This document shows, in pieces, positions 11,200 through 63,165 of a stretch of 64,000 nt of DNA (position 1 is the stretch's first letter; each line of letters opens with the position of its first letter). The notes beneath the pieces are model-generated. The model worked only from the letters and a program-made list of their open reading frames with translations, did not search any database and was not told where the DNA came from. The stretch spans positions 124,001 through 188,000 of the forward strand of contig QPMI01000133.1 of the NCBI GenBank assembly GCA_004431415.1, written 5' to 3'. Source of the DNA: Cyanophora paradoxa CCMP329. Its lineage: Eukaryota; Plantae; Glaucophyta. Made by a program: the position numbers and the translations under genes.

Positions 11200-11740
11200 C
11201 AGTCAACTCCTTATTTCAGTGCGCATCAGAGTGCTGAACGGAGGTCGGCCCACTAGGCTGAGGCTCCCTAATGCCCCCGAACGTTGCCCGCCGCGAAGGG
11301 GATCAGTTCTGGCGGCGCGCTGGACTACGCTGCTATCCGCAAGCTGAAGCTGCGCAGTTCTGCTGCTGTCCGCAAGCTGAAGAAGACTGCGGATTCCGTT
11401 CGCGGGCGCGCGGGGTTTTTCGTCCGAACGTAACGCGCTCACTTCGGAGCGCTGCCTGACTTACAGGCAATGTACAGGTGCTCAGGCGTGCAGCCCGCGT
11501 TGAGTGCTCGGATCGCACAGCTCGGCGGAGGCGATTTTTTTTCACCCGGCCCACGCAAGATGGCGAGTGCAAGCGTGGAGAGGTCCTAGGCGAGGGTACG
11601 CTGCTCTTCGTTCGCGGGAGCTGCATTGCGGAGTCGAACTGTCGGAGGCAATCGCTTCCCGATCCGATCGTGTTCTTCATTCCATCGCTTCGCGCGCTAT
11701 AGATACTCCTGCGCTGGAGGCCACCGACTGCTCCGCTAGA

Positions 11741-28398: not shown

Positions 28399-28483
28399 AC
28401 ACATATGTATAAACTTATTTAAATCCCTCCGCTTCGCGCTTCGCGCTTCGCTCCTGGATTTAAATAAGTTTATACATATGTGT
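28399..28483. repeat. Perfect 28-bp inverted repeat (hairpin) at the left boundary, with a 29-nt loop containing (GCTTCGC)x3
   Basis: ACACATATGTATAAACTTATTTAAATCC (28399-28426) is the exact reverse complement of 28456-28483. Loop is CTCC-GCTTCGC-GCTTCGC-GCTTCGC-TCCT. Confidence 0.95.
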
Positions 28484-28794
28484 CAAAATTAATACTAAAA
28501 TACGTATTTATCGATTAAATTCTTTAACTTTTTATGCAAACTTTGTATAAATTAATGCAAACTTTGTATTAAAAACGAAAAACGCGTTTTATTTTATGCA
28601 TATTTACGACTGAATCAATTGATCTTATATCGATTGATTATGTTCTTTGTCGATTACATATATAACTGCGATTAATTTGCATTAAACTACTTAAAGATCG
28701 ATATAATCGCGATTAAATTGCATAAATTCGCATAAACTCGATATATCTCTCTTGTATTGAAGTAGACCACCGCCCATTCTGTATCGAAAAACGC

Positions 28795-29055
28795 AAAAAG
28801 TGTCACAGAGTTGCATTGTGTCCAATTGAACAATCGATGAGATTGCTGATTTGCATTTTTGCACCCAAAAACTGTCACAGAGTTGCATTATCTCCAATTA
28901 AACAATCGATTAGATTGCGGGATTTTCTATTGGAATATATCGGAACTGCATTATGTCCAATTAAACAATCGATGGGATTGCGGATGTATATTTTAGATTG
29001 AAAAAAGTGTCACAGAGTTGCATGGTCTCCAATTGAACAATCGATTAGATTGCAT
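28795..29055. repeat. Subterminal degenerate tandem repeats (about 4 units of 60-75 bp, TGTCACAGAGTTGCAT...CAATT[G/A]AACAATCGAT)
   Basis: TGTCACAGAGTTGCAT at 28801, 28873 and 29008. CAATTRAACAATCGAT occurs four times. Confidence 0.85.
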
Positions 29056-29109
29056 ATGTTCTATAAAACAGAATAATTGAGATCAAGTGTGACAGGTAGT
29101 ATTCAAATG

Positions 29110-29632
29110 ATATTCAGTAAGAGATAGTTTTGTTTTTGAGAAAGTCAGTAAGAGGGGTGGAATGTCTGTGACGCCTGTGACGGCTGTGACGCCTGTTTTC
29201 AGAAGTCTGTCATTTTTGAAAATTTTAAAAAGTTTGAAAGTAGGTGTCACAGGCGTCACAGGCGTCACACTCAATTAAATTAGGTGTCACAGCGAAATTG
29301 CAGACCATTTCCAGTAAGACAACTTCGCATTTTCAAAAAGGTTGATTAATGGATAGTGTTTTGTAGGTGTCAGAGGTGTCACAAGACGGATTTCAGTAAG
29401 ACAAGAATATATTCTCGAAAATCTCAGTAAGAGAAAGAGATTCCATTGTTAATTGGGTGTGACGCCTGTGACGGCTGTGACGGCTGTTTTCAGAAGTCTG
29501 TAATTTTTGAAAATTTTAAAAAGTTTGAAAGTAGGCGTCACAGGCGTCACAGGCGTCACAGTCAATTAAAGAGGCGTCACAGTCAATTAAATAGGTGTCA
29601 CACCCGATTATCTGACCATTTTCAGTAAGACC
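29110..29632. promoter_or_regulatory. Two tandem origin-like modules: 9-bp iterons (TGTGACGCC) x3, AT-rich core, inverted iterons (GGCGTCACA) x3-5
   Basis: Copy 1 at 29167-29291, copy 2 at 29458-29602, period about 291 bp. The origin function is inferred. Confidence 0.65.
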
Positions 29633-29654
29633 ATCTGAAATTCTGAATTTCTCA

Positions 29655-30071
29655 GTGTCAACTAACTCGGAAATCGCAATACTCTATGTTTCTCCGATTT
29701 CTCCAACCCTGAAAACACACCTGTTATTCTCTCATCTATCTCATGAGATACTCTCGTTTCGCCAAAAATTGACAAACGATTTCCCATCATGCTGTAAAGG
29801 AAACATGCCGATTAACCAGCAATATCACAATTTCCATGGGACTTACATCTTGATTGTGAATAAAATGCAAGATCATTATGAGATCTTTCAAGAGATGGGA
29901 TTGCGAATTACAAGGAGATCAACTCTTTGTAGATTCTTGAAAAAGAATGGTGCTAAATGGGATAAGACAATTCGCCGATGGTATACAGAGGATGCTAAGA
30001 GTCCCCTTCTTAATATTTTCGAGACAGATGGGGAGTTTTTCTATCAGGATCGGTTTAATCATTACCAATAG
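29655..30071 (+). CDS. Small viral protein with a DUF5710-like GAKWD-x-WY motif; true start probably downstream
   Basis: LKKNGAKWDKTIRRWY motif. Confidence 0.45.
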   Translation: MSTNSEIAILYVSPISPTLKTHLLFSHLSHEILSFRQKLTNDFPSCCKGNMPINQQYHNFHGTYILIVNKMQDHYEIFQEMGLRITRRSTLCRFLKKNGAKWDKTIRRWYTEDAKSPLLNIFETDGEFFYQDRFNHYQ

Positions 30072-30986
30072 CCAAGAACTCCAACTGGAATGAGTTGTCT
30101 ATTCCATTCATATCAACAAGATCACCATAATAATCTCGAAACTCAACTGTTAACTCTCTAATCACAAGGTTTCGATCGGTTATTTTTATGTATTCACTGT
30201 GCTCTCCACTGTGATAAACATACTGTCCAATATCTTTACTCAATTGCAATCTGAGAATCGCCCCTTGATTCTGTGGTTGTGATCTTGGAACAATATTGTG
30301 GTTTGTAGCAAATGGGGAGAGTTCTTTAATGTGCATGTATAAATACTGTTCTGCATTCATGTCTGTCATCTTGGATGCTTCTAACTTGTAGTTTAAGCGA
30401 GATGCCTCGAATTCATATCCTGTGAATGTGATTCCCCATTGGGGATGGTTTGGGGTGATTGGGATTCCTGCAAAATAGAGGAAATTCTCGGGGCATATAA
30501 AGACCTTGCAGACTCTGGGAAATCGTAGGTTTGCTCAATTGAAGCGACCCACTCCACAGAACTAACCCCAAGAAGTTTACCCAATCTCTGTGTAGATGCT
30601 ACCATCTCGAATTGAACATTACTGTAAAACTCCAATTTGTAGGAAGTAGGATTGTAGTAGACCTTGAATGCATATGTGAGATTGTTGCTCCCAGTAAATG
30701 TGAAATTCAGACCATAATTATATGGACTGGTGACCCCGAAATGCCCTTGATTAATATAACCACTTGGGAGAAGGAAGACCTGTTTGGTTTCAGAGATGCC
30801 TTGGTAGAAGAATCTGACAAGAAGGTGGTCTGTTCCAATGGAATTATAGATGCTGTTGGGGATCTCTGCATACAAAACTCGACATTCTCTTGGTTTGGTC
30901 ACTGGGGTTGTGAGTGAAACTTTGTAGGAGTTTTCTATTTGTCCATCTGATCGGTCTCTGCTATCTATATTGACCAGCCGAATCAT
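30055..30986 (-). CDS. Minor capsid (penton-like) protein B; one frameshift at G-run 30490-30493, about 310 aa restored
   Basis: N-terminal LVNIDSRDR and VLYAEIPNSIYN; C-terminal QYLYMHIKEL and IRELTVEFRDYYGDLVDMNGIDNSFQLEF, typical of PLV minor capsids. The restored frame (FAGIPITPNHPQWGITFTG) aligns with paralog 62247-63137 (VAGIPVTPAHPEYGVDFTG). Confidence 0.8.
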
Positions 30987-31014
30987 TTTAATATATGTTT
31001 ATAGATAAAAGAAG

Positions 31015-32025
31015 ATGCCTGTGGATTACATCGAAGTGAGCTCTTTCAATACAATTTCGGGAGATGGACCAACTTCGAGTTTTATTGCTCGCCTCCCCAG
31101 CACCTATGAATTTGTGAGAGCAGTAAGACTGGTTTCAGCAGAATTCTATAACAGCATTCCCATGGTGAGTGGTGAAACCAAACCAGGAGATGTGACAATA
31201 GATACTGCAATCTACCTTTATTGGTCTGAATATCTTTCTGGTGCAGGAAGCACTGGTATTCCAACTGATCGACCTGCTGCTGATTATGAATCATGGAAAC
31301 ACATTGTGATAAGTCGCAGCACACCCATTCAAAACCACCAACAACTGGTGAATGTAATTAACTCCAAACTTGCATTGAGAGAGCCACCAGTAGCAATTCG
31401 CTGTAAATGGGATGATACACTGAAACGAGTAATATTCCATTCCACCATACCGTTTTACCTGGCTTTCTCAACTGCAATAAACCCAACCCAGGCGCAGATT
31501 CAGAGGTTTTTGAGTTCTGCTCGACTGCTTGGTCTTGATCCTGGGAGATATGGTAACACACCAATCCAATCACAGGTTTATAATACTCTTACTGATGGTA
31601 TCTTTACTGGGTCGATGGTGCATGGTATTATATCTTCATTTGAACCTGAAAAGTTCAGGGATAGTGTCCTATTTGTGAGAGTAAAGGAGTTGGGTGATCT
31701 GGTTCAATGTGGTGATGGTCTCCTCACTGGATATTTCCACAAAATCGTTGTTCCAGATAAAGATTATGGTGAGCATGTCGTTTATAATTCGACAGAAGCC
31801 CATCCGATTTATAAATACTATAACAAGAATCTGGGACTTTCCACATTTTCGGTTGATATTGTGAATGCAGTTAATGAACCAATTGATTTCGAGGGTCAAC
31901 CTGTCCACCTCACCTTCGAAATTCGATATGGTGATGAACCTGCTGGTGATCCTGTGTACGAATACTTCAAGAGGAGAATGGCGGAAACACATCCATCTTA
32001 TCCGGTTATTGCGAATTTTGCGTAA
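31015..32025 (+). CDS. Minor capsid (penton-like) protein A
   Basis: SFIARLP..VRAVRLVSAEFYNS; LFVRVKEL; LSTFSVDIVNAVNEPIDFEGQPVHLTFEI. Confidence 0.8.
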   Translation: MPVDYIEVSSFNTISGDGPTSSFIARLPSTYEFVRAVRLVSAEFYNSIPMVSGETKPGDVTIDTAIYLYWSEYLSGAGSTGIPTDRPAADYESWKHIVISRSTPIQNHQQLVNVINSKLALREPPVAIRCKWDDTLKRVIFHSTIPFYLAFSTAINPTQAQIQRFLSSARLLGLDPGRYGNTPIQSQVYNTLTDGIFTGSMVHGIISSFEPEKFRDSVLFVRVKELGDLVQCGDGLLTGYFHKIVVPDKDYGEHVVYNSTEAHPIYKYYNKNLGLSTFSVDIVNAVNEPIDFEGQPVHLTFEIRYGDEPAGDPVYEYFKRRMAETHPSYPVIANFA

Positions 32026-32079
32026 AATCAAGGATCATCGGTGAATTTTTTATGTTGCAGTATAATAAAAGAGATAATC

Positions 32080-33452
32080 ATGGATATTACTTCGGCCCTC
32101 CAACGTCTTTCTCTGAAAGAAGCTCTAACAACCCCGGAAGAAGCCAAGGCGTTCTTCGTGGACAACTCTCTCATGCTTGGTCTTGAATCCAAGTCGAAGC
32201 CAGTTCTTGTTGTTGTGAACCCAAGCAACACTTTCGAGAATAATGCTGGAAATCGCATTTCTTTCAAGCTCCCTCGCTACAATTTCTGTGGAAAACTCGA
32301 ACTTGCGTTTGACCTTCCAGCTGTCACTTTTGCTGGTGATACCGACCTTGTTCGCAATGGATACGTTCGCCCAGTTGGTGCTCTTGTCTCTCGACTTGAA
32401 ATCACCTATGGATCTTACACCTTCCATGTGCTTTCTGATTTCCTTGCTCATTTCCCTCTTATCTATTACAGTGAGGATCAACTCGCCAAGAAGAAGCGTT
32501 CAATGGGAATGGTTCATGGTATCCCTGCCCATGGAACCAACCGACTTGGTGGGTCATTTTTCACTGAAATCCCAGTCCCATGGCTAAACCACTACCTACC
32601 TCTTGGTGCTCTCTCAGGAGAAATGGTGGTAACTGTCTGGTTCAAGGATGCTGGAAAGGGTTATGTTGAGACTTCTTATGGTGGTCGTGCTCTTCCAGTT
32701 GTTGGTGGAACAGCTGCTGATAAGACAGAGGATGATGGACTTGGTGCTACTGCTAATGCTACTCTTGCCCATGTTGGTCAACAGATCACCACTTTTGGAA
32801 TTGGTGCAACAACAACCCCGAAATTAAAGTCACTTCTCCTCGTCTTTACATGCATGCTATTAATGTTTCTGATGAACTGTTTGCTACTGTCATTGAGAAG
32901 GTGAAGACCACTGGTATGGCTATTCCTGCTCTGGATATTGGTTTCGTAGACAGTGTCAATTTTGCTGCAAAAGGCAATGCTCAACCAAATCGTATTAACC
33001 TGTCACAGATCTCTGGTCTTGTCTATGGTCTTCTTGTTTCAGTTCGTGATGCCGCAGGTATTGATGGTTTCAATGGTTCCCACAGTGTCCTAAAAACGCA
33101 TGCTAACTCGAAAGACATTACTTTCACTGTTGAAATTAATGGTCAACGTCTCTATGCTACTGAGCCCATCCCTCTCCTCAAAGGTGCCGAATTAATTGCG
33201 GATGCCTTCAAGTGCTCGAATATGGACAAGGTTGCAGACAAATATGTCCTCAGTGGTCTACCATTCTGTGTTGATGGAGAGAAAGCGATTCGCAACATTG
33301 CCCAGTCTGGCTATGTTGATCTCACGAACTCCTCCTCCTCTTTCCTCACTCTATACATGCCTTCTGACCAGACAATCACAGTTAATGTTCGTGCTCTCAT
33401 GCACAGTTTCATTATTGTTGACAAAGATGGGCTCCGACGAATTAATCTGTAA
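32080..33452 (+). CDS. Major capsid protein (double jelly roll); one frameshift at C-run 32816-32819, about 457 aa restored
   Basis: ISFKLPR..LELAFDLP and IPVPW...LPLGAL..EMVVTVWF resemble double-jelly-roll MCP motifs. Size and position between the minor capsids and the ATPase fit. Adding one C gives TPEIKVTSPRLYMHAINV and joins the two ORFs. Confidence 0.78.
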
Positions 33453-33514
33453 AACCATGATCAGTAACGTTTCGTTATTTTTATCTATCTTTAATAAGAA
33501 AGATCTACAAAGCC

Positions 33515-34297
33515 ATGAACGATTTAGAAGAGTTTAATGCAGGCGAAATGATAACCCCACCATTTCGTGCTCTTTTCATAGGAAAGTCTGCAACAGGTAA
33601 GTCAGAATGTGTGAAATATTGGTTGAAACAGCTGCATGATGCGAAAAAGATTGATACTGTTCTTGTTGTGAGTGGGACGTCCTTCAATCATTTCTGGGAT
33701 GCAGTAGCAACATTGCAACTCGGGAAATGGGATGCTGCTTATATTTCCAAATTACTGGATGAAAGGCAGGAGAAAATCGAAAAAGGGGAACCGGTCAATC
33801 ACCTCTGTGTGGTCTTAGATGATTTAATAGACAACGAAATCATTGACTTGACCCGAGACAAAATCGTGGGATCCCTGTATTCCAGAGGTCGACATTCGAA
33901 AATCTCGATTATTTGCATCACACAGAAGCTGAGGAAGGTTTCATCAACAATTCGAGTAAATTCGGATTATGCTGTGTTCCTGAGTGCTGCTAATCGCAAA
34001 GAACTCGAAGCAATCGAGGAGGAATACAATATCATGCGAAACAAAGACGATTTCTATAAGATGTTTGAGGAGTATGTCCACTCCTATCAATATATAGTGT
34101 GGTCTTCTGCGAATTATTCGGTGAACTATTATGTTGATAAAGCGGATCTGGTCAAAGATTTCCCATTTCCTCGGTTCCACAGGAAGCCCAAAAAGAAAGA
34201 GGACGAATTACCACCTCCACAGAAAGAGGAAGCCCCCAAAGAGGTCAAGAGTGGTGTTCATTCGAATAAACTGATGCGATATAAGAGAGGTTTGTAA
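33515..34297 (+). CDS. A32-like (FtsK/HerA) DNA packaging ATPase
   Basis: Walker A FIGKSATGKS, Walker B LCVVLDD, RGRHSKISIICITQ and IRVNSDY. Confidence 0.93.
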   Translation: MNDLEEFNAGEMITPPFRALFIGKSATGKSECVKYWLKQLHDAKKIDTVLVVSGTSFNHFWDAVATLQLGKWDAAYISKLLDERQEKIEKGEPVNHLCVVLDDLIDNEIIDLTRDKIVGSLYSRGRHSKISIICITQKLRKVSSTIRVNSDYAVFLSAANRKELEAIEEEYNIMRNKDDFYKMFEEYVHSYQYIVWSSANYSVNYYVDKADLVKDFPFPRFHRKPKKKEDELPPPQKEEAPKEVKSGVHSNKLMRYKRGL

Positions 34298-34325
34298 AAT
34301 AATCTCTGCTTCTAATAAATATACA

Positions 34326-35060
34326 ATGCCTTCCAAACGCAAAGTTGGTGTTCCTGCTGGTGCTATCTCATATTCTGCATCCTCTGGAACCGGTTCTATT
34401 AACACAGATCCCATGAAATTCAATGGTGTCAACGAAGTGAAAGCATCACAGCAACAGGAAGATCCCCTCAATGCTGCTTACGAAGAATCACCAGATGATA
34501 AAGCGCCCCAGACATCCACAAGTGACCAGTTGAATATTTCGCCCGAAACCTCCAAGATGAAGGCAGTTGGTGAAGGTGCTCGTCGAATTATTGGTGCTGC
34601 TGATGACAAAGGACTGGGTCTGCAAGATCTCTCACTGGCTCGCAAAGGTGAAGGTGTCTCCAAAGAATCAGACAAGGTAATTCAATCCATGGCTGGTGAG
34701 GTGACCTACAAGGTCGCACCTACACAGAATATTCACCGAATTCCCAAAGCCCAATGGGACGAAATGACTGCGAAACTTAAAGATCTGGAAGCGAAATCGA
34801 GTGCACTGGAACAGTATGTCTCTGAGAAGAAAGAGAGAGCGAAATTGAAGGAGATGCTGCGAAAGGAGGTGTATAGAATGGGGATTACTGGTCTACCTGA
34901 TAAGCAATTTATTGGTAAGAAAGAGACTCAAATTGATGAGCAGGCAGTTGATGAGATGAAGACCAAAACCCAGAAGGGCACCATTGAACCTGGTGCTACC
35001 AAGGCAGAGGTTGACAAAGGTGTTGCCCCAACAGTATATAAACGACGAGTTTGGCTATAA
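34326..35060 (+). CDS. Viral hypothetical protein (Lys-rich, predicted coiled coil)
   Basis: 244-aa ORF packed directly after the ATPase, with an AT-rich upstream spacer. Confidence 0.6.
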   Translation: MPSKRKVGVPAGAISYSASSGTGSINTDPMKFNGVNEVKASQQQEDPLNAAYEESPDDKAPQTSTSDQLNISPETSKMKAVGEGARRIIGAADDKGLGLQDLSLARKGEGVSKESDKVIQSMAGEVTYKVAPTQNIHRIPKAQWDEMTAKLKDLEAKSSALEQYVSEKKERAKLKEMLRKEVYRMGITGLPDKQFIGKKETQIDEQAVDEMKTKTQKGTIEPGATKAEVDKGVAPTVYKRRVWL

Positions 35061-35087
35061 TTATCTCGCTTTAAGAGAGAGAGCATC

Positions 35088-35321
35088 ATGGATTTCTTGC
35101 GAAAAATCATAGAGATGTTTAATCTCCACATTGTGAGCAATTGTCACAGTGGTTGCTGTGATACAAAAGTCGAAATCGAATTCTCTGACACTGAAAGTCA
35201 TGGATCTGGTGGTAGAAGATTATCCACAGACTCGGTGGATTTCGAGGAGCATATTAAAACAGAGACAGTGAGGCGACGCTCTGTATCTTTCACAGATCCG
35301 AAATTAAATCTCGGTAATTAA
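35088..35321 (+). CDS. Small viral protein, paralog of 50338-50706
   Basis: MDFLRKIIEMFNLHIVSNCHSGCCDTKVEIEFSDTE versus MDLIRRCLDMFHLHITSNLKSSCCETTIDLNISETD. Confidence 0.7.
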   Translation: MDFLRKIIEMFNLHIVSNCHSGCCDTKVEIEFSDTESHGSGGRRLSTDSVDFEEHIKTETVRRRSVSFTDPKLNLGN

Positions 35322-35522
35322 TATCGAATGCTCAGTCTCTCTGAGATCTATGCTATCCTTGAAAGGAAATCCGCTGAATATGCAACAGAAGCCGCAATAA
35401 AAAAGCGTAGACAGGAACTGGTCTCGATCTGCAAAAAATGACAAGGGATTTAAGGGTAAGGTGTGTTTGATTGGTGAACCCGGACAAATTATTTTCTCGT
35501 CCAAATATAAGGAACATATCAA

Positions 35523-35750
35523 ATGGAAACTGAATCTGTGGTCGAATTCGAACTTGCAATGAGCGAAATGGATCCCAATGAGAGAAAAAGGTTGTATGAC
35601 CGCTTGTATTTCCAGAAACGCTATCAAGATGAGGAGTTTCGTGAATTATATCGTAAAAAGGCACTGGAACGATATTATCGCAGGAAAGCTGCTGAGATGG
35701 ATCCCAATAATCCAGTAAAACGCCCAGTAGGTCGTCCCAGAAAATACTGA
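35523..35750 (+). CDS. Small basic DNA-binding-like protein with a C-terminal AT-hook
   Basis: RKKALERYYRRK...KRPVGRPRKY. Confidence 0.6.
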   Translation: METESVVEFELAMSEMDPNERKRLYDRLYFQKRYQDEEFRELYRKKALERYYRRKAAEMDPNNPVKRPVGRPRKY

Positions 35751-35944
35751 ACCGCCCCCAAAGTCCCAAATATCCGCTGAATCCTTTTTGTTACCATGAT
35801 CGATCGACTTTTCGATGGATCATTACCATATATCGAGCGCCAATCGGAGAACCCAAAGGTATTTAAAGGTTAGGCGCCAAAAAATGACAAGCGACCGGAG
35901 AAATTAATTTCTCCATTAAGGATAAGAAGCACCCGATTGTTGAA

Positions 35945-46136: not shown

Positions 46137-46185
46137 CTTTACTTAACTCAAATTTAATAAATCTCTATAAGTAGAGTAAACAGGG

Positions 46186-49100
46186 ATGAGTTTCAATTAT
46201 CCAGCAAACCTACAAACCATTTCCTCATCAGGAAGAGGGAAGGCAGATAACAAACATGTGAATTTCGATAACTTGACAGCCAGAGGGTCAATCTCAATTG
46301 ACCACAGTGCAGATGAACCCTCAAAGACTCACCCAAGAGAGCATGCACTTTCAATAAACGAAATGGATCCCGAAAAGGAGGATGTGAGTGTTGCTTTCAG
46401 CATGGGAAATGTGAAATCGAATCAGGTAGCCCAGATTAAAGCAACCAGGAGCAGACCAAGAAAACTGAAAACCAGTGGAACCCATCCAGATATTCCAACT
46501 CGATTCGATAGTGGTAGGTTAATATTCAATGTTCAAAATGAGAAGGGTGGGCATCAGAGTGGTTTGAGAATCTATAATGAAGGATCAAATGCAATTGCAC
46601 AAATTCCCGAAATATTACAGATAGCCCCCCATGGAGAAACCAACAAAATCGAGTTCACTAACAATGTTTATCCAAGAGATATTGTGGCGAATTCGGCTTC
46701 TAATGCACAATTCGGTTTCCAACTACCTGGTGATACAGCAAAGAATAAGGCGTCTATCACTGTCAACAGTAGCCCCACTCAACCAGTAACAATTCGTTTA
46801 CATCCAGACCTTGTCGAAATGGATAGGCACCTTTTACCTCTGGTAACCAACACCAAAGATCTTGGTATTAGAACCAGGCAATGGCGAAATATCCATGGAA
46901 GCAATGTCTATGCAAATGGTGAGAAACTTGTAAGTGAGAAGACCATCAGAGAGATCTTTGAATATTATGGACCTGTCCCAGTTCCCTTTCCTCTTCCATG
47001 GGATCCACCAGATTTAACACCCAAGAAGCAACCAGGAAGAGAGTATACAGCAGATGAGACAGTTCCTTTTGGTCAACACATTGTGAGTTGGGAGCAGGTT
47101 CGCAATAAACCTATAATTGAACCAAAAAAGCAAATTGATGAGCAATATTTACCACCTGAAATCGATATATTGGAGCTTGATGATTACTACTTCGTCCCAG
47201 ATGAGGAGGAATACCTACCTGATGGTTTCGACCCACAGGAATATGAATATGATCAATATGACCCCAATGAGGAAGAGTATTTACCAGATGGCTTAGATCC
47301 ACAAGAGTATGAGTATGAGCAGAACTATGAACCCCATGAGGAATATTTAGCAGATGGTCACGAACCACCAGTTGTTGATTATGAGCAACCATATGAACCC
47401 CATGAAGAATTATTACCAGATGGATTTCGCCCAGAGATTTGGGAATTCTTCCCAGATTGGGAGCAGATCAACAATAAACCAGCCAGATTTCCACCAGAGG
47501 ATCACAACCATGACTGGGATGAGATATTAGGTAAACCAGAGAAATTCCCACCAGAGGATCACAGGCATGACTGGGGTGATATTGATGGGATACCTACTGA
47601 GTTTCCACCAGCAGACCATCGGCATGATTGGGACGAAATTGACCAGCAACCTACTTTTGCATCAGCAGGAAATATATTAACAGATTTCCAACATGGAGTA
47701 AGTCTTTACCAAAGTAATACAATACCAGAAAGATTACAATTAAATGACCACTACCTTAATCGCATGGGAATAGAAGCAGGCACAGGAATGGAAGCGGAAT
47801 TATACATTAGACCGCCCAGAAGAGATGGAATTTTACCAGTTAGTGGTAATTTTGGTTTGTATGAGACAAAACCCGGAATCTATCTAACAAGTTACTACCC
47901 TGAGGATATCCCGATGACAGATAGTTTAATAATACCGCTTCCATCTGATCCAGCAAACTATGATGACAAAGATGCAGCAATCCAAATTAATGTTACTGAT
48001 GTAAGTGACTTAGATAGTTCAAGACCCAAATTAATATTCACCAGAGAGAGATTGTTACCCAATGCTCTCATTGGAAATCGAGATGACTACAAGAGATGCG
48101 AAATCTCATGGATAAAAACGAATTATAATGGTGGAGTTGGTGAGGGAGTTTTAGAAATCAATCAAAGGGCAGCAGCAAAGAATATTCACAATGAGACCAT
48201 ATCAAGAGTGGTAACAGAGGATTACCTTCAAGCCCAAAACTACATAGATGAAACAGAACTGAATACAATTATTGCAGGTATTAATATTGGTGTGACAGGT
48301 GATTACCTCCCTCTCACAGGTGGGATTATTGATGGAACAGTGACAGCATGTAACTTCTTTGTTCACACTGAAAGCAATCAAACCTTTCCTGTGGTTCACC
48401 CAGGAGGTGAGTATGAGATACCTGATGATCCAGCTATTATGCCCATTAAAATCGATCTCCCTTCTGATTATGTCGGAAGGGGTGAACTCAAAATCATATC
48501 TTTCACAGGAGATTATAATGATCTCATAAACAAACCCACCTCAGCAAATCTACACCCTGTTGCATTTTCGGGTAGCTTCCTCGATCTTAATAATAGATCA
48601 CACACCCATACAAAGGCAGAAATCACAGATTTTGCACATACTCACACCAAATCCCAGATAACAGATTTTGCTCACTTCCACACCAGAGCAGATATCACAA
48701 ATTTCGCTCACACTCATGTTAAATCAGAGATAACAGATCTTGGAAATGTTGCATATGTTGGTCACACCCATACGAAGGCAGAGATTACAGATTTTGCACA
48801 CAATCACACTAAGGCGGAGATTACAGATTTTGCACACACTCATGATTGGAATACAGATATTTATAACAAACCAGCGATTTTCTCAGGCAACTACCTCGAT
48901 TTGACCAATAGACCAACTCTTGATCCCTTTACAGCCAATAACATCACAGCAAATGCAAACCTTCTTGTTGGATCAGGTTACTTTCTTGACTACGACCCCT
49001 ACATTATGCCCAATCCTCCTGTGATTTGGAATTTCCACAATTCAACTCTTTCTACTAACACAATATCATACTACCAGGATAAAACACTTCTTGTTCGCGG

Positions 49101-49496
49101 TAATGCATATGCAAGAGAAATGTGGGTCAGGGATCCTCGCAATAATGCTGCTGTTACCAAGTTGATGCCCCAATATGTTTTTGATAATTACACTACTACT
49201 GGAATAAGGAAGGGACATACAATTTCGTCATAAACAATCCCCAAATTGGTGGTAGTTCAGCAAGGCAAAATCATACCATTACATTAAGTTGGAGTCCTGC
49301 TTTTGCATCAACCCCATCTGTTGTTGCAACATTGGAGGGACTGCCTGCAACTAATGTAGAGATCGACTACAAAATGGGAATATCAAGCAACTCAACCACC
49401 TCAACCACCATAAATCTTGTTGTTTGGGCAGCAGGATATATAAACATACAACCCCAAACCTTCATGGTTACAGTGCATTGGATAGCAACTGCTTGA
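46186..49496 (+). CDS. Fibre/spike-like protein with HxH repeats and a C-terminal H-type-lectin-like tip; frameshift at G-run 49212-49214, about 1103 aa restored
   Basis: WxxIxxKP and DHRHDWDEI repeats, HTHTKAEITDFA repeats, YLPLTGG and FSGNYLDLTNRP phage tail-fibre motifs. The restored tail reads ...ITLSWSPAFASTPSVVATL...VTVHWIATA*. Confidence 0.75.
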
Positions 49497-49520
49497 TTTC
49501 AATCTTTTACTATTATAAAG

Positions 49521-50123
49521 ATGACCTCTCTATTAGAAATCCCAAACTACGAACTTGCAGCAAAATCACTGCACAGCATCTCTCATGGAGTAGTTGATTC
49601 AACACCTGGGAATATCTGCACTGAAACATCAAGTAATACCTCTTTCACAGAGAATAATATACTCAGATTCAAAGAAATTCGATGTGATCGAAATGGAGGC
49701 AAGATTAGAGCCACAGGCATTATTATCTCGAATAAAAATCAAGTTCAAGCAGGTCAAATAGTCCCCGATTCAGCAATATATGATAATGTGGGTGGATTCA
49801 CCACAGCAAAGATAGTAGCTTTCGATAACACAATAAATAATTCGGCTCTTGTAGTAAGAAGTGGAGGCGCCTACATTGGTGATGGAGCAATTGTGATGGG
49901 GACTGTCACAGCAAATCAATTAAATGTGAACGGGACAAGTAGTTTTGGTGGGTATATGAATTTCAATGGTGGTCTATCAGGGAATATAATTTATGGGACT
50001 CTTCAAGCATTTCTGAGAGTTCAGGCACCCGAGATTGGTAATGGGACAGATTCCAACACGACCTATAAACGAAATGGGAATGCGATTGTTACTCTTGAAA
50101 AAACAACAGTAGCAGTGTTGTAA
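49521..50123 (+). CDS. Viral structural-like protein, paralog of 50743-51576 and 51605-52453; possibly truncated at the junction
   Basis: Shared NILRFKEIRCDRNGGKIRAT and ALVVRSGGAYIGDG motifs. Confidence 0.7.
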   Translation: MTSLLEIPNYELAAKSLHSISHGVVDSTPGNICTETSSNTSFTENNILRFKEIRCDRNGGKIRATGIIISNKNQVQAGQIVPDSAIYDNVGGFTTAKIVAFDNTINNSALVVRSGGAYIGDGAIVMGTVTANQLNVNGTSSFGGYMNFNGGLSGNIIYGTLQAFLRVQAPEIGNGTDSNTTYKRNGNAIVTLEKTTVAVL

Positions 50124-50340
50124 AGGGGAGGACCCCCCCTCAAACCAGACCGCCCCCCAAAGTCTGGTTTTACCATCAGGGGTCCACCCCTATAAGCGTG
50201 ATCATTGAGCGAAATTAGTGAGCTAGAGTAGACGTGTTGATTAGGCGTTAGTTTAGGGAGATATCGGAACTGAGTTTAGGAGGGCGTGTGTGGGTGTACT
50301 TGGGGCCCCGGTTGCTTGCGCGCGGTCTGCTGCGGCCTCA
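50119..50340. other. GC-richer structured junction segment between the two viral elements (possible retroelement or LTR remnant)
   Basis: Starts TGTAAAGGGG and ends CA. Nested stem-loop: GGGGAGGACCCC (50125-50136) pairs with GGGGTCCACCCC (50179-50190), and AAACCAGAC (50142-50150) pairs with GTCTGGTTT (50162-50170). Confidence 0.45.
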
Positions 50341-50706
50341 ATCATCTTCTTCCACGATGATCAATGTTTTTTCTGTAGAAGTTCTCCTATGCCTTGGTGA
50401 ATCGTGTCTTTGGGCATTCCTGAAATTGAACGGGAGCAGAGTCAAATTTTGCATTGGAGTTCTAGGGATCGCATGCCCATGGGTCCCAGGCCACGAGCTC
50501 CGTCTATCAGTAGGAACTAGCCAGGGCACAGGGGAGTCTGTTCGAGATTGTTCACAGGGCGACACTGACCGAGAAGTGTTTGGAGTTCCATCAGTGCCGT
50601 CGGTTTCTGAGATATTTAGATCAATAGTTGTTTCGCAGCAGCTGCTCTTGAGATTGCTTGTGATGTGAAGGTGAAACATGTCAAGACATCTCCTTATCAA
50701 ATCCAT
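50338..50706 (-). CDS. Small viral protein, paralog of 35088-35321
   Basis: Conserved N-terminal MD..R...MF.LHI.SN..S.CC.T. Confidence 0.7.
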   Translation of the reverse strand: MDLIRRCLDMFHLHITSNLKSSCCETTIDLNISETDGTDGTPNTSRSVSPCEQSRTDSPVPWLVPTDRRSSWPGTHGHAIPRTPMQNLTLLPFNFRNAQRHDSPRHRRTSTEKTLIIVEEDD

Positions 50707-50742
50707 TCATAGTACTTGTTGCACATAAAAGAATGAAGATCT

Positions 50743-51576
50743 CTAAGGATTAGGATCGGCCCCGCCGATTGGGAAATAACGATTCGAATTGAACGTTTCC
50801 CCGTACTTGACACCATTTGCAATCACATCTGTTCTTTCGGCAAATAGAATTATTTTGTAGGCCCCCATGAGCGTTGCCCTCACAATAAACTGGTAATCTT
50901 CAACCCCAACGGGAGCAGAGTGGAAAGCAACACCAAAATTGTCGATCGGATTGATTAAAACAGCTATGTTTGGCCGGAGAGCATCATTCCTCCTACAAAG
51001 GAAATAGATATCAGGGGGAATATCAACAACACTCTTGAAATGATTTCCGAGTGGCTGAACGTTATCTACGATCGATGTTTGCTCATTTATGTTTAGCGTG
51101 AAGACTTTGATGATATAAGGCGAATTCATAGAAGGCACATAGGTTCGAATTCTTTCATTTACGTTTTCAGGGTTGGGTTGATCATTAACAAATATAGGGG
51201 CACAAGCAGCTCCGCCCACTCTCAGGCCGTCTCCTATATAAGCACCTCCAAATCTGCAGGTCAAAGCTCCTATTCTTGATTCGTAGGTAAAAGTATTAAC
51301 CTTGTTAGCGTCGTCATAGCTATCAGGATCGCCATAATGCGCATTAAAATTAGCATTAGTTACAAGGAGATTAGTCGTTTTAATAGTGCCATTATTTTTG
51401 TCACATCGAACCTCTCCTAAACGTAATATGTGATTCTCCCGGAAGGTGTTTAAAGTTGGCTGCTGCTCTGTGGACTCTAGGCCAGGCACATCATCTGAAA
51501 CTGCATGCTGCAGGACGTGGTTGGCTGGAGCGGCGAGGGTCAACGATGGAACTACTATTCTTTCAACAGCTTCCAT
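50743..51576 (-). CDS. Viral structural-like protein (GGAYIG family)
   Basis: EVRCDKNNGTIKTTNLLVTNANF and ALTCRFGGAYIGDG. Tandem paralog of the next gene. Confidence 0.75.
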   Translation of the reverse strand: MEAVERIVVPSLTLAAPANHVLQHAVSDDVPGLESTEQQPTLNTFRENHILRLGEVRCDKNNGTIKTTNLLVTNANFNAHYGDPDSYDDANKVNTFTYESRIGALTCRFGGAYIGDGLRVGGAACAPIFVNDQPNPENVNERIRTYVPSMNSPYIIKVFTLNINEQTSIVDNVQPLGNHFKSVVDIPPDIYFLCRRNDALRPNIAVLINPIDNFGVAFHSAPVGVEDYQFIVRATLMGAYKIILFAERTDVIANGVKYGETFNSNRYFPIGGADPNP

Positions 51577-51604
51577 TTTAGAAAACAGAAGATAAAACTT
51601 TCAT

Positions 51605-52453
51605 TTAAGGTATAGGATTTTCCGGATTGTTCTCCTCATACATGTTATTCAGTGCTGGATCAAAGTTTAACCCTCTAGTGGCCACAGATGCAGCCACATC
51701 GGAGCGATAGCCAATGATTAGGATAGAATATCTGCCTATAGCAGTAGCATATAAATCGAAAAGATGCCTTGTATTAATATTACGAACAACGTATCCACGC
51801 CCTGCGTGTCCTAGACCCTGTACAAAGAACGTGTAAACATGGCCTATTTGATCATTTTGATCTTGACAGAGCGATTGAAGTGCCTTGGGGATTTCTCTGT
51901 TTGAAAGCAACCTCTCTCCATCGAGACCATTTGGTGTGCTTGAATTAGCTATTGTAATTTCAACTTCTACTAGAGCTTGTGCATAGGGGAGGTCACAGCA
52001 GGGTACATACATGCGAACTCGTTTACGATTTTCAGCATTCTCTAATGAAAAGTCTGGGACATCATTGATGGCAATCGATGATGATAGCCCTCCACTAACT
52101 CGGCAAGCACCGGTAATAGCCGCACCACCGGAGCGCACAGTGAGGGCAGCAGTGTTTTGATCGTAGTTTATGCTTCGGAGGTCAACACTGTACGAATCAA
52201 CTCCCCCTGTTATGGGCTGGGAGAAATTCGCATTAGTAACTAATAATCGTGTTGTTTTTACAACCCCAGAGTTTTTATCTGCGCGCAATTCTTTACACCG
52301 AATCACAGATCGCTGATCAAATGCATTAGTTGAATTTGGACGCTCAGTGGACTCCAATCCAGCAATGGCATCGCTAACTTCGTGCTGCCTCATATGGATG
52401 GCTGGGGAGCCGAGCGAGTAGATAGGTAGTTGGACCCGATTGTACTCGGTCAT
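51605..52453 (-). CDS. Viral structural-like protein (GGAYIG family)
   Basis: ELRADKNSGVVKTTRLLVTNANF and ALTVRSGGAAITG. Confidence 0.75.
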   Translation of the reverse strand: MTEYNRVQLPIYSLGSPAIHMRQHEVSDAIAGLESTERPNSTNAFDQRSVIRCKELRADKNSGVVKTTRLLVTNANFSQPITGGVDSYSVDLRSINYDQNTAALTVRSGGAAITGACRVSGGLSSSIAINDVPDFSLENAENRKRVRMYVPCCDLPYAQALVEVEITIANSSTPNGLDGERLLSNREIPKALQSLCQDQNDQIGHVYTFFVQGLGHAGRGYVVRNINTRHLFDLYATAIGRYSILIIGYRSDVAASVATRGLNFDPALNNMYEENNPENPIP

Positions 52454-52682
52454 TTGATAGAAACGAAAGAGAAAAAATAATGCAGCAACGTCAAGCTGGA
52501 GTGATCAGATTTGATCCGAGAGCTTGATAGATAGTGGATAGGTTATGAAGTGACATCATCATAGTTTTCAGGTTTGAATCGAGCTCATTATATTTGCCGG
52601 CAGGATCACCATACGCCGATTGCGCAAGGACATTAACCAAGAGGTTTTTATATTCATGAACAACTGGGGACAGTTTGTTAGT

Positions 52683-54677
52683 AGCCGGTGGCGGATGCTG
52701 CTGCAAGCCAGGCAGGAAGGGGACGAGCGCGTTCAATGGCACCTCCTCTCACCCGAGGATGCCGCCCGCCTCGCCGAGCTGGAAGCGGACCCGCCGGATC
52801 CGTTGCACCTGCCGCAAGACGAGGCGGCCCCGATTACCGATAGGCAGGCACGGCAATACTACTGCGCACTGAGGGACGAGGACTCCTGGGCGACCTTTCT
52901 GCAGGCATGGGATGGGCTGGAGGGGGACCTCCGCCGCGAGCTGTGGGCAGCTGAAGCCGCCTCCGACGGGACCTACGAGGCGGCCGCGCCAGCCCAAGCC
53001 TGGACGGACGGGAGCCTGCTGGACGGTCAGACGAGCCTAGCGCGCGGGGCCTATGCGGTCCACTGGCCCGCGCGTCACCTACGCACGGGCGCGAACCTCC
53101 ACCCGCCGGAAGTCTTTCCCAGCTTTCGCGCCCGCCTGAGTGGGACGCAGGAGATCAACAAAGCGGAATTACAGGCAGTGCTTATGGCGGACATGCTATC
53201 CCCGTTCGGAGCCGTCGTCCACATCGACAACCAGAACGCGATCCGCTGGTGTAAGGAATTCGTTCTCGACGCTGCCCAGCGTAGCCCGCGGGAGTACATC
53301 CGGCACGTCTGCTCTGCCGAACTGTATGCGTGGCGTAAGCTCAGGACCCAACTAGATATGCGGGGGCGGCCGCTCACGCTGGTGAAAGTGAAGGCGCACG
53401 CGCAAGGCGAAGCGCGCGACCTGCACAATGACGTTGCCGACGCTCTTGCGAATCGCACAGCCGACGAACAACTCCCTGCAGAGAGTCTTCACGAGCCCGT
53501 TTTCCTGCCACCGGAGTTCAGCATGCCAGCCGTCCTCACAGTCGGTAACGGGGACGGCACCGTGCGACGGGTGGAAGGCGACCCGAAGGAACACATGGAC
53601 ACCTTACATGAGCATCACACACACTTCGCTTGGGCTCAACAACCACTGGCTGGTGCGTTTCTACGCCGCGGAGACGCCGGGGCAGACATCGGCGGGCTGT
53701 ACGCGGAGACAGCCGTAGGACCCCGGTTCCGCGGCGCGAGCGGAGCTCGCAACGCGCTTTTCAAGTTCAGGACCCAATTGATCTGCAGCTCGCTCCCAGC
53801 GAACGAAGTCCGGGTACGGGATAGGCCTGACCTCTACGCAGCCTATAACCCGGGCGGCCGCTGCGCGGCCTGCGCCACGAGGACACCGAGTACCCGGCGA
53901 GACCGTGCAAGCCCAGCTGAAGCGAACGAGCAGCCAGTGCAGGCCGGCCCCAGCAGACGGCGCGAGGTACCGATAGCTCTCACGGCGGGCCCGGCGGAGA
54001 CATTCACACACGTCTTCCTCTGCCCGGGGCCCCATGCAGTGGCGCACCGCGCGGAGACCGCCCGTGAACTGAATCGCTTCCTGCGGCGCGCCCACCGCGA
54101 GACTCACGGACCCCAACTCAAGAACATTGATCCCACGATAGCGCTCACCTCCGGCCTTGTGCCCACCTATCTGCGCGTAGCCGACGATGACGCCGAAGCG
54201 CGCAGCTCCGACGACCGCCCAACCACGTATTCGCGGCTCTGGGTCCTCCAAGGTGTTGCCCCGCAGTCGCTCGAGCGGGACTTGATCCGCGCCCTCGACC
54301 TCGACCCGCACCGCGCGCCCCGCACGGCCAAGCGCGTACGCCAGATGCTGATCGAACGCGCGCGTCGGCTCTGGGCCAGCCGGTGCGAGATCAACGCAGC
54401 ATGGGAACGAGACTGTCGCATCTCTCAAACCTCTAAGCGTCGCCCGCGCCCGCCCCGCACAGGAGCTAGAGCTAAAGAACGCGCCCGCGGACCCCGGGTC
54501 CCGATAGAGCTCTGTCCTGCCTGCGACGGGCCCATACACCTTCATAACGACCTTCGCGCAGCTCAGAACGCGGACTGCCCGCCGGAATACCGAGGATGGA
54601 AGGCAGCGCTTCAAGCCCAAGAGCTCTACGACAGCACCAAGGTCCGCCCCTGGAGCCTGCCCCCCCCGGACGATTAA
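52683..54677 (+). CDS. C-terminal part of a retrotransposon pol ORF: RNase H plus Cys/His zinc motif; no RT domain
   Basis: AWTDGS, EINKAELQAV, VHIDNQ and VKVKAHA...NDVADALA (RNase H D-E-D-D); CAAC...ETFTHVFLCP (zf-RVT-like). Confidence 0.88.
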   Translation, partial: SRWRMLLQARQEGDERVQWHLLSPEDAARLAELEADPPDPLHLPQDEAAPITDRQARQYYCALRDEDSWATFLQAWDGLEGDLRRELWAAEAASDGTYEAAAPAQAWTDGSLLDGQTSLARGAYAVHWPARHLRTGANLHPPEVFPSFRARLSGTQEINKAELQAVLMADMLSPFGAVVHIDNQNAIRWCKEFVLDAAQRSPREYIRHVCSAELYAWRKLRTQLDMRGRPLTLVKVKAHAQGEARDLHNDVADALANRTADEQLPAESLHEPVFLPPEFSMPAVLTVGNGDGTVRRVEGDPKEHMDTLHEHHTHFAWAQQPLAGAFLRRGDAGADIGGLYAETAVGPRFRGASGARNALFKFRTQLICSSLPANEVRVRDRPDLYAAYNPGGRCAACATRTPSTRRDRASPAEANEQPVQAGPSRRREVPIALTAGPAETFTHVFLCPGPHAVAHRAETARELNRFLRRAHRETHGPQLKNIDPTIALTSGLVPTYLRVADDDAEARSSDDRPTTYSRLWVLQGVAPQSLERDLIRALDLDPHRAPRTAKRVRQMLIERARRLWASRCEINAAWERDCRISQTSKRRPRPPRTGARAKERARGPRVPIELCPACDGPIHLHNDLRAAQNADCPPEYRGWKAALQAQELYDSTKVRPWSLPPPDD

Positions 54678-55767
54678 CCTACCCTCGTAGGGGGAGGGGG
54701 GGGGGGGGGGGGGGGGGCTACAACTGGAGGAGACGCGGAGACACGGAGACTCCACCACTACGCCCACTGACGACCTCACTCTCAACCTATCACCTACGGC
54801 CGCCCGCCGGGCCCTCGCGCCCGCCGCCGACCCGCCGCCGCCTGCGCGACTTGCGCCTCCACACCTCCCTCGCTACCGCCGACACGCTCGCCTCCCGCCG
54901 CCACCGCTGCTCTTGCCCCCTCTGCCCTCTCTCGCCCATTGCCCCAGTCGCCCTCTCCCACGGCCCCACCTTTCACCCCTTCTGCCCCCGCCGTTCTGCT
55001 GATCTCCCGCTACCCCAGGGAGGGGACGGTGGTGCGGGCTGCCAGGTGGAAGGTCGTCGGTCGGCCGCTGAACCCACCGGCGCCTGCCCCGGCCACGCGC
55101 CAGGCCGGGGCGGTCGGACCGCCGCGGGGGGGGCTCGTCATTGCCCGCGGCGGGGGGGAGGCGGTCGGCAGGCGGCTGGAAGCCCGGCGGAACGCGCCAC
55201 TGGAACCTCCCTCCTCCCGACCGCGGCCGCCCGACCCGGTCCTCCCCGTCCTTTCCCGCCGCCCAATGCTGCCCATGCCGTGCCCCTCTCCTCGCCCCAT
55301 CCCCCTTCCCCCGACCAATCTTTCCCGATGCTCTGAGCCCGGCGGCCCACCAGGCCTGCTCTCGCACGAGCGAGCCCCGACCCGACCCGCCGTGCCGACG
55401 ACACGGCGGGCCGTACTCTAGCGTGTACAGAGTGGTTAGATTATAGTGCGCCTTCTCGGAGGCCCTAGCCTACTAGGCATAGAGCTAGCTACAGCTGCAG
55501 CTCACTTCGCTGCCCGCCTCTGATTTCTACTCTCGTCCCCGGGTAGCCACTCCCTCTCCCGCGTAGGATCTTTCCTGTGCTGCAGCTCTACTACTAGGCT
55601 AGACTTAGTTCCCGGGGTAGCGTCTTCAGTTACTTTCATATCCGAGCTCCACCCGGTCCGATGTCCGAAAGGCTTAGTCCCGTAGGCTCATCTCTCGACT
55701 TGACACAGATGGACACCTCAGCTATATCTCTAGCCATTTGTCTCGGTGTGTGCGAATTCATTTGGGA
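52683..55767 (+). mobile_element. 5'-truncated non-LTR retrotransposon (RNase H-bearing) nested in element 2
   Basis: GC-rich 3085-bp island flanked by the exact 17-bp direct repeat GGGGACAGTTTGTTAGT at 52666-52682 and 55768-55784. Confidence 0.9.
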
Positions 55768-55932
55768 GGGGACAGTTTGTTAGTTTGCTGTATCGTTTTT
55801 TCGACATTTTGTAGCGCGGCTACAAGTTTAATAGTATCAAAAGCAAGAGCGACAGGCTCAGAAGTAGTAGAAGGAGATCCACCAAGTGGATAGGTCGCCA
55901 TTTATTATACTGTGACATTTTTATTACGGCAG

Positions 55933-60748: not shown

Positions 60749-60771
60749 TTTTATATAAGCCCCTTTTAAAA

Positions 60772-63137: not shown

Positions 63138-63165
63138 TTTTATTCTCTAACTGATATAAAAAAAG

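What the first reader, a model, noticed from the sequence alone, without database searches (positions are those of the whole stretch)
28399..50123. Hybrid endogenous virus: pPolB plus rve integrase plus PrimPol-D5 helicase with iteron origins, two pentons, a phospholipase and a phage-like fibre, with no standalone maturation protease seen
Seen: the full gene set and order. Established: classical Mavericks have pPolB, rve integrase and an adenain-like protease, while many Polinton-like viruses use primase-helicases and often tyrosine recombinases. Inference: this element combines both replication kits and adds a patatin/fibre entry module, so it may represent a poorly described lineage. A second, diverged member sits right beside it.
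Basis: partly seen in the sequence, partly recalled or inferred. Interest (0 to 1): 0.8.

Follow-up and report, generated by a model that had tools for sequence, protein, structure and literature searches.

The report
Algal provirus with proofreading-less DNA polymerase
This is one copy of a multi-copy polinton-like virus integrated in what is likely the glaucophyte alga Cyanophora; its gene kit is already catalogued, but its DNA polymerase lacks every proofreading residue while a primase-helicase sits next to it, likely a third independent case of a trade-off known from two other small-virus lineages.

Summary
Observation largely confirmed. 28.4-50.1 kb is an AT-rich polinton-like virus (PLV) in a GC-rich host. 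It carries a capsid gene, A32 ATPase, two penton-like genes, PrimPol-SF3 helicase, pPolB, rve integrase, patatin-discoidin and a fibre with a likely lectin tip; no maturation protease was found. Short-read contigs put capsid, replication, integrase and patatin genes at about 20-40x host depth and lack the three frameshifts tested.

The 'undescribed hybrid' reading is overstated. Bellas 2023 lists a near-twin capsid from Cyanophora paradoxa. Bulzu 2025 tabulates 156 glaucophyte elements with rve, pPolB, D5, lipase and no protease, and names the patatin-discoidin and PTR-lectin fusions. Dual replicases are published for mavirus-type and Halocafeteria elements.

Not found in print: this pPolB and one 46% relative have lost all exonuclease catalytic residues plus about 95 aa, whereas 118 of 119 other relatives keep them. 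It is polinton-type, not mavirus-type. This fits Krupovic's exonuclease-loss/helicase-gain rule, likely as a third independent case. This copy also has a roughly 82-aa palm deletion that the majority contig lacks, and no right end in the window. The scan noted sibling PLVs, hairpin ends and iterons on other pieces of this genome.

The parts
28399..28483 (.). Left terminal palindrome (hairpin); left end of the element
   Evidence: Fold z -10.8. The single-copy host contig (depth 56/36/87) stops at 28426 in three runs, placing the junction at about 28397-28399 if words are 31 letters (inference).
28793..29053 (+). Subterminal 72-bp repeat array (type A)
29167..29279 (.). Mirror-image iteron-like block 1 (9-bp words on both arms)
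29449..29570 (.). Mirror-image iteron-like block 2
   Evidence: z -13.5
29805..30071 (+). Small ORF, 88 aa, weak DUF5710
   Evidence: E 8e-4, below cut-off
30055..30986 (-). Penton-like gene 2, frame-split near 30489 in the assembly
   Evidence: Both pieces match sibling 62247-63137; 2 of 3 DNA runs show one extra base, the third had no cover there
31015..32025 (+). Penton-like gene 1, 336 aa
   Evidence: Atlas 0.97; 30% to sibling 63166+; fold not shown
32080..33452 (+). [quoted passage not shown]
   Evidence: 59% to P0001; Bellas S2; Atlas Capsid_N clusters 0.98 with low recognition 1780; 3 of 3 DNA runs lack the frameshift
33515..34297 (+). A32 packaging ATPase
   Evidence: Pfam E 2.5e-11; Walker A/B
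34326..35060 (+). 244-aa charged, Cys-free ORF; possible core protein (inference)
   Evidence: no family
35088..35750 (+). Two small ORFs (77 and 75 aa); the first has a homologue in the sibling at 50338-50706
35945..38307 (+). PrimPol (AEP)-Zn-D5_N-SF3 helicase, frame-split near 37263 in the assembly
   Evidence: Pfam; PHROG primases E 3e-43; motifs; 3 of 3 DNA runs lack the frameshift
38397..38518 (.). Mirror-image iteron-like block 3, right after the helicase gene
38909..41944 (+). pPolB: TP-like N-terminus (inferred), vOTU (C235/H336), Zn finger, eroded exonuclease without catalytic residues, polymerase. This copy also lacks about 82 aa between motifs B and C (break near 41474).
42110..43528 (+). 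rve integrase with DDE triad
43773..44600 (.). Variable spacer: echo of the integrase C-terminus (43926-43988) and two tandem arrays (44174-44454); lower depth
44601..46136 (-). Patatin phospholipase fused to discoidin (factor-VIII-C2-like) domain
46186..49496 (+). Fibre with PTR repeats; H-lectin-like tip in another frame (49188-49493), frameshift not tested with reads
49521..50123 (+). 200-aa ORF, N-terminus homologous to two sibling ORFs
50124..50189 (.). GC-rich hairpin unlike the left end; candidate terminus of the neighbouring sibling virus (inference)
   Evidence: z -5.3; no match to the left arm
50338..64000 (.). Diverged sibling PLV (two fibre-associated ORFs, S74 fibre, patatin, two pentons), interrupted by an RNase H retroelement at about 52.5-55.8 kb

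Best explanation
This is one copy of a polinton-like virus family, present at roughly 20-40 similar copies in what is likely Cyanophora, whose polymerase lacks its proofreading residues and likely replicates the genome together with the neighbouring primase-helicase. Shown: the gene set; intact catalytic motifs of ATPase, primase, helicase, integrase, patatin, vOTU and polymerase; loss of Exo I, II and III residues plus about 95 aa, shared with a 46% relative; similar contig depth across modules. Inferred: the rve integrase inserts the linear genome; the PrimPol-SF3 protein loads at the mirror-image repeat blocks and unwinds and primes; the vOTU frees the terminal-protein part and the polymerase elongates without proofreading, with the helicase making up for the lost exonuclease as Krupovic proposed for mavirus; the end hairpin caps or primes single-stranded ends; virions mature without a protease, attach by the lectin-tipped fibre and breach membranes with the patatin-discoidin enzyme. 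This particular copy is likely polymerase-dead, because it lacks the region between motifs B and C, and no right end is visible in the window.
For: Motifs. Exonuclease loss: window and P0002 lack Exo I D/E, Exo II N/D and Exo III Y/D; the FIDS-to-LDP span is 33 aa versus a median of 128; 118 of 119 others keep all four acids. No joint or listed loose end at the exonuclease deletion in 2 of 2 runs. The remnant stays in frame and is 34-38% identical between the pair. The P0002 model has pLDDT 86.6 with the remnant folded; its best PDB match is phi29 pol; adintovirus and bidnavirus-type PolBs rank top, mavirus pPolB ranks 41 at 9% identity. The pair is monophyletic (support 1.0) among exonuclease-intact relatives. 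The majority contig (depth 1238 of about 1416; 1920 of about 2070) goes on with other letters after 41474, read by eye as the normal motif B continuation, so the B-C deletion is not family-wide. Depth ratios 20-41x host across capsid, PrimPol, pPolB, rve and patatin. Shared composition. Literature: PMC11071308 passages; PMC12220804 section 13 and Table S6.
Against: No contig spans all modules and no whole genome was available, so a fixed gene order across copies is not shown; one low-depth joint (38266-38697, 26 letters on the short side) is the only cross-module link listed. The genomic context of P0002 is unknown, so helicase co-occurrence is shown for one family only. Exonuclease inactivity is predicted from sequence, not assayed. 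31 loose ends were not displayed. Faster evolution of the pair is weak (root-to-tip 1.42 and 1.39 versus median 0.96, maximum 1.42). Published work reads such two-replicase genomes as transient or composite. The penton folds are unproven.
Confidence: 0.62

Rival explanations
1. Composite of two once-separate units: a PrimPol-helicase PLV (capsid + helicase, bracketed by the inverted repeat blocks at 29.4 and 38.4 kb) that picked up a transpoviron-like pPolB-rve module, each replicase working on its own.
For: Inverted repeat 29439-29582 versus 38384-38527, 88% over 144 nt. The relic integrase tail and separate arrays at 43.9-44.5 kb have lower depth. Barth et al. describe this pattern and read EVE_QPMI01_83 as three elements (figure not seen). 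The sibling has a different module order.
Against: Each block is itself a palindrome, so it matches in both orientations and need not be a terminal repeat. Depth and composition are equal on both sides, so any fusion predates the family's expansion. The exonuclease loss fits a long partnership with a helicase.
Confidence: 0.2
2. The pPolB is a fading passenger in a replicase replacement: PrimPol-helicase does the copying and the polymerase is kept only for its terminal-protein or OTU protease part.
For: Exonuclease lost; this copy tolerates a palm deletion. The hairpin end is unusual for protein priming; the Halocafeteria preprint links palindromic ends to non-pPolB replicases and calls dual replicases transient.
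Against: Polymerase motifs A, B, C and KxY are kept in two lineages only 46% identical. The majority of copies keep the motif B continuation. The polymerase part is 41-54% identical between the pair.
Confidence: 0.14
3. Unrelated nested elements or an assembly chimera.
For: The long-read assembly has indel errors here, and a sibling virus and a retroelement lie directly to the right.
Against: The left junction is supported by a single-copy host contig in 3 of 3 DNA runs; cover is continuous in 30 of 30 bins, with similar contig depth; composition is shared.
Confidence: 0.04

Closest known systems
Cyanophora paradoxa endogenous PLVs (Bellas 2023, PMC10120064, Tables S1, S2, S4; Bulzu 2025, PMC12220804, Table S6 and section 13)
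   Same: 366 MCP hits in two clusters (272 + 94). Table S2 holds P0001 and a 465-aa MCP matching the window's at 48 of the first 60 residues (counted by eye). 156 glaucophyte elements: 0 protease, 0 tyrosine recombinase, 85 rve, 49 PF03175, 40 D5_N, 8 Prim-Pol, 89 lipase, 97 minor capsid, 37 S74. Patatin-discoidin and PTR-PTR-H-lectin fusions are named.
   Different: These give per-group counts only. In what I read there was no per-element description, no note of exonuclease loss, and no iteron or hairpin analysis.
Mavirus and low-GC EMALEs (PMC11071308, PMC8547959; passages)
   Same: pPolB with lost exonuclease (mavirus) + separate SF3 helicase or primase-helicase + rve integrase; integrated, low GC.
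   Different: Virophage MCP and maturation protease there; here an NCLDV-like MCP and no protease. The polymerase here is polinton/adintovirus-type and keeps a folded exonuclease remnant; mavirus pPolB is structurally distant (rank 41, 9% identity).
Classical Mavericks/Polintons (Polintoviricetes; 'adintoviruses')
   Same: TP-vOTU-type pPolB (about 30% identity to e.g. Megastigmus wasp adintovirus PolB), rve, ATPase, MCP, mCP.
   Different: No adenain/Ulp1 protease, divergent MCP, extra AEP-SF3, exonuclease-less polymerase, hairpin end.
Tlr1-type pPolB-S1H fusions of PLVs and transpovirons (PMC11071308)
   Same: Exonuclease loss coupled to helicase gain.
   Different: There the domain is gone and an SF1 helicase is fused; here the domain is eroded in place and the helicase is a separate AEP-SF3 gene.
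Multi-replicase and palindrome-ended elements (bioRxiv 10.64898/2026.10.13.758929 section 13; 10.64898/2026.07.28.741278 passages)
   Same: Two replicases in one genome, internal repeats bracketing modules, tandem or nested insertions, terminal palindromes; one example carries the Cyanophora project prefix.
   Different: They read these as transient or composite. The Barth text has no occurrence of 'exonuclease'. I could not see the figure, so cannot say whether EVE_QPMI01_83 is this family.

Membership tests
Polinton-like viruses, broad sense (Cyanophora EVE set of Bellas/Bulzu) | Double-jelly-roll MCP | tested here: met
   59% to P0001, listed with HHpred 98.47% to an iridovirus MCP; Atlas Capsid_N 0.98; own single-sequence fold failed
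Polinton-like viruses, broad sense | A32-like packaging ATPase | tested here: met
Polinton-like viruses, broad sense | [quoted passage not shown] | tested here: inconclusive
   Atlas look-alike 0.97; no PDB profile hit; weak profile-profile match; not folded
Polinton-like viruses, broad sense | Integrated, 14-40 kb, with terminal inverted repeats | tested here: inconclusive
   Left junction supported; no right repeat in the window
Polintoviricetes (classical Maverick/Polinton) | pPolB and rve integrase | tested here: met
Polintoviricetes (classical Maverick/Polinton) | Adenain/Ulp1 maturation protease | tested here: not met
   right end missing, so a gene beyond 50.1 kb is not excluded; 0 of 156 in Bulzu S6
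Polintoviricetes (classical Maverick/Polinton) | Maverick-clade MCP | not tested
   No tree built; literature points away (2 of 156 hit the MCP-POL profile; Bellas S4 counts fall in the 'iterative HMM' columns)
Polintoviricetes (classical Maverick/Polinton) | 5-6 bp target-site duplication | not testable with these tools
   Right end not in the window; no genome held
Virophaviricetes / Mavirus | Virophage-type MCP | tested here: not met
   NCLDV-like look-alikes; HHpred in Bellas S2; MCP-VIR 0 of 156
Virophaviricetes / Mavirus | Maturation protease | tested here: not met
Virophaviricetes / Mavirus | Exonuclease-less pPolB plus separate SF3 helicase plus rve (works like) | tested here: met
   but the polymerase is of another lineage
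Aquintoviricetes (strict) | MCP in the TsV/PgVV/Dino clades | not tested

The most novel reading that the evidence does not exclude
Glaucophyte PLVs form their own capsid lineage in which a polinton-type protein-primed polymerase lost proofreading independently of mavirus and Tlr1, caught midway with the exonuclease fold kept as a dead scaffold. It works obligately with a PrimPol-SF3 helicase at iteron origins and hairpin ends: a two-enzyme, error-prone replisome that lets a resident antiviral provirus family diversify quickly.
Probability: 0.3. Interest if true: 0.68.

Novelty: new variant of a known kind. Interest (0 to 1): 0.42.

Why it matters
Krupovic et al. proposed from two lineages that these viruses lose the proofreading exonuclease when they gain a helicase. 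This family offers a likely third, independent and intermediate case in a culturable alga. The reads indicate dozens of similar copies, intact at the breaks tested, so the proposal becomes testable by fidelity assays with and without the helicase and by selection and mutation-spectrum analysis across copies. The gene inventory itself adds little to what is catalogued.

Tried and rejected
No whole genome is held, so a search for other copies in the assembly was impossible. Relatives in IMG/VR: ATPase 0, helicase 0, iteron word 0; P0002 gave 1 locus, L001, a 30%-identical pPolB in a free PLV with different genes. MCP in JGI metagenomes: 0 confirmed of 36 pattern matches. Penton homologue search: 0 of 973 candidates. 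PDB sequence searches for pPolB, penton profile and MCP profile: 0. Single-sequence AlphaFold of the MCP relative failed (pLDDT 34), so no fold search was run on it. Sequencing runs: no RNA holder listed; the guessed-RNA run X20 gave sparse low-depth pieces; neither is used as evidence on expression. P0123 (cadherin-repeat protein) was rejected as a false MCP hit. One protease-like motif in an antisense frame was rejected as chance. A 5-bp target-duplication candidate at 50332 was rejected because there is no terminal repeat there. The frameshifts in MCP, penton 2 and PrimPol-helicase were rejected as family-level decay because the short-read contigs lack them; contigs cannot show whether this one locus has them. 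Paper searches: polinton + protein-primed + proofreading + 'lacks the exonuclease' gave 0; one search gave the three papers listed; DUF5901 gave 0; Cyanophora + polinton gave 5; glaucophyte + endogenous + polinton-like + major capsid protein gave 1. Earlier-findings look-ups by sequence, by words and for relatives were blank.
Full report
Setting. The window is 60-79% GC host DNA for most of 1-28 kb, then 38-47% GC to 52 kb. Host genes are intron-rich, for example an ephrin-receptor-like Cys-repeat gene. The only hit for the MCP N-half among longer proteins is an EukProt Cyanophora paradoxa gene (59%). Bellas 2023 Table S2 lists that same protein and a 465-aa Cyanophora MCP that matches the window's at 48 of the first 60 residues by eye. 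The host is therefore likely Cyanophora paradoxa, a glaucophyte alga. This is an inference from labels; no genome was held.

Observation. The patatin's second domain resembles coagulation factor VIII C2. The fibre has PTR repeats and phage-tail matches and an H-lectin-like tip in another frame (below cut-off). The two pentons are plausible but unproven. No protease was found. The left end is an 85-nt palindrome, followed by a 72-bp array and two mirror-image blocks; a third block follows the helicase stop. No copy of the left end occurs at 50 kb. Instead a different hairpin starts one base after the last ORF, and the sibling's genes follow.

One element, many copies. Of 24 listed runs, 19 hold half or more of the words of 32-42 kb; one may be the source sample. 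Laying four runs on 27-47 kb shows host flank contigs at depth 56, 36 and 87, stopping at 28426. Element contigs run at 20-41 times that depth across penton, MCP, PrimPol, helicase, pPolB, rve and patatin (only the displayed pieces, and depth ratios are rough). The 43.7-44.3 kb spacer is lower. The frameshifts at 32815 and 37263 are absent in 3 of 3 DNA runs, and the one at 30489 in 2 of 3 (the third had no cover). Four modules share tetranucleotide usage (r 0.79-0.93) and mostly low CpG, unlike the sibling (r 0.27-0.65; CpG 0.77-0.93) and the host. No contig spans the modules, so a conserved order is inferred, not shown.

The polymerase. The search returned 3066 relatives and listed 120. In an alignment of these, the window and P0002 (46%, Logan, context unknown) keep the vOTU Cys/His and polymerase motifs A, B, C and KxY. 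Both lack Exo I D/E, Exo II N/D and Exo III Y/D, and have 33 residues where others have a median of 128; 118 of the other 119 keep all four acids. In two runs no joint or displayed loose end falls at that deletion (31 loose ends not shown), so it is likely family-wide. The remnant is 34-38% identical between the pair but only 18-24% to others. A tree on the polymerase part alone (488 columns, FastTree, midpoint root, no outgroup) joins the pair with support 1.0 among exonuclease-intact relatives, on long branches. An AlphaFold model of P0002 from 56 of the 121 sequences is confident (pLDDT 86.6), though the alignment is dominated by intact relatives. It matches phi29 polymerase best in PDB and adintovirus/bidnavirus-type PolBs best among viral models, with mavirus pPolB at rank 41. 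The window copy also has 9 residues between motifs B and C where others have 91-92. In the model this segment holds the strands where TPR2 is expected (recalled from phi29 domain order) and a palm helix. The majority contig in both runs leaves the window at 41474 with other letters, which read by eye as the normal motif B continuation. So this deletion belongs to this copy or to the assembly, and this copy's polymerase is likely dead.

Mechanism. Krupovic et al. (PMC11071308, passages) note that exonuclease loss accompanies helicase gain, independently in mavirus (separate S3H) and in Tlr1-type fusions (S1H). The family here fits that rule from a third polymerase lineage, with the domain eroded rather than removed. 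I infer a joint replisome (helicase-primase at the repeat blocks, proofreading-less pPolB for elongation), rve integration, protease-free assembly and fibre/phospholipase entry; Bulzu proposes the same entry role. Rivals are a composite PLV plus transpoviron-like module, a fading polymerase, and unrelated nesting or a chimera.

Comparison with the known. Bellas 2023 (passages, supplement rows) counted 366 Cyanophora MCPs. Bulzu 2025 (passages, sections 11 and 13 part 1, Table S6) tabulates exactly this kit in 156 glaucophyte elements. Starrett 2021 (passages) noted adintovirus-like PolB and integrase variants in Cyanophora contigs. Hackl 2021 (passages) and the Halocafeteria preprint (passages) report pPolB with primase-helicase. 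Barth et al. (passages and section 13) report multi-replicase genomes, including EVE_QPMI01_83; its figure and supplements were not available and may cover this family. The Bellas and Sommaruga framework preprint (passages) does not mention Cyanophora or exonuclease in its main text. The Oxyrrhis paper (passages) describes an exonuclease-intact fusion. Bulzu's Zenodo polymerase alignments, not seen, may show the exonuclease loss. My searches found no report of it for this lineage.

Earlier scan notes on other pieces of this genome describe sibling PLVs, helicase-matched repeats and hairpin ends. I used them as leads only: they pointed me to the Barth preprint and to the nesting reading of the 50.1-kb hairpin.

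Verdict. A real, mostly known kind of element. The 'hybrid' gene list is not new; the proofreading-less polinton-type polymerase paired with an AEP-SF3 helicase is a new variant worth a targeted test. Interest 0.42.

Noticed in passing
window 52456-55830: GC-rich (60-69%) insert with a 673-aa RNase H ORF (52656-54677; Pfam E 6e-4), likely a 5'-truncated non-LTR-type retroelement inside the sibling virus.
   Followed up: partly
window 50124-50189 and 35751: A second hairpin directly after a stop codon; its 15-nt loop word recurs right after the stop of the small ORF at 35523-35750. Candidate sibling terminus or transcription-end signal.
   Followed up: partly
window 43773-44600: A 21-aa echo of the integrase C-terminus (71%), two tandem arrays (15-50 bp and 17 bp units) and lower read depth: relic of another module or another origin type.
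   Followed up: partly
window 55933-64000: The sibling's fibre shares its shaft (52%) but ends in an S74 chaperone instead of an H-lectin; its patatin/fibre module lies on the other side of the pentons; its fibre and patatin are frame-split in the assembly.
   Followed up: partly
window 42110-49233 versus 50743-63999: CpG observed/expected is 0.22-0.37 in integrase, patatin and fibre of this element but 0.77-0.93 in the sibling, hinting at different methylation histories.
   Followed up: no
window 5300-11200 (minus strand): Intron-rich host gene with ephrin-receptor-like/TNFR Cys repeats and a 275-bp tandem duplication at 10206-10755.
   Followed up: partly
L001:33-14451: Free aquatic PLV (IMG/VR) with a 1487-aa related pPolB, candidate MCP, two candidate minor capsids, ATPase, GIY-YIG-like ORF and fibre (labels read by eye from translations).
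   Followed up: no
window 28141-28404 (minus strand): An 87-aa host-side ORF starts at the integration junction; no Pfam match.
   Followed up: partly
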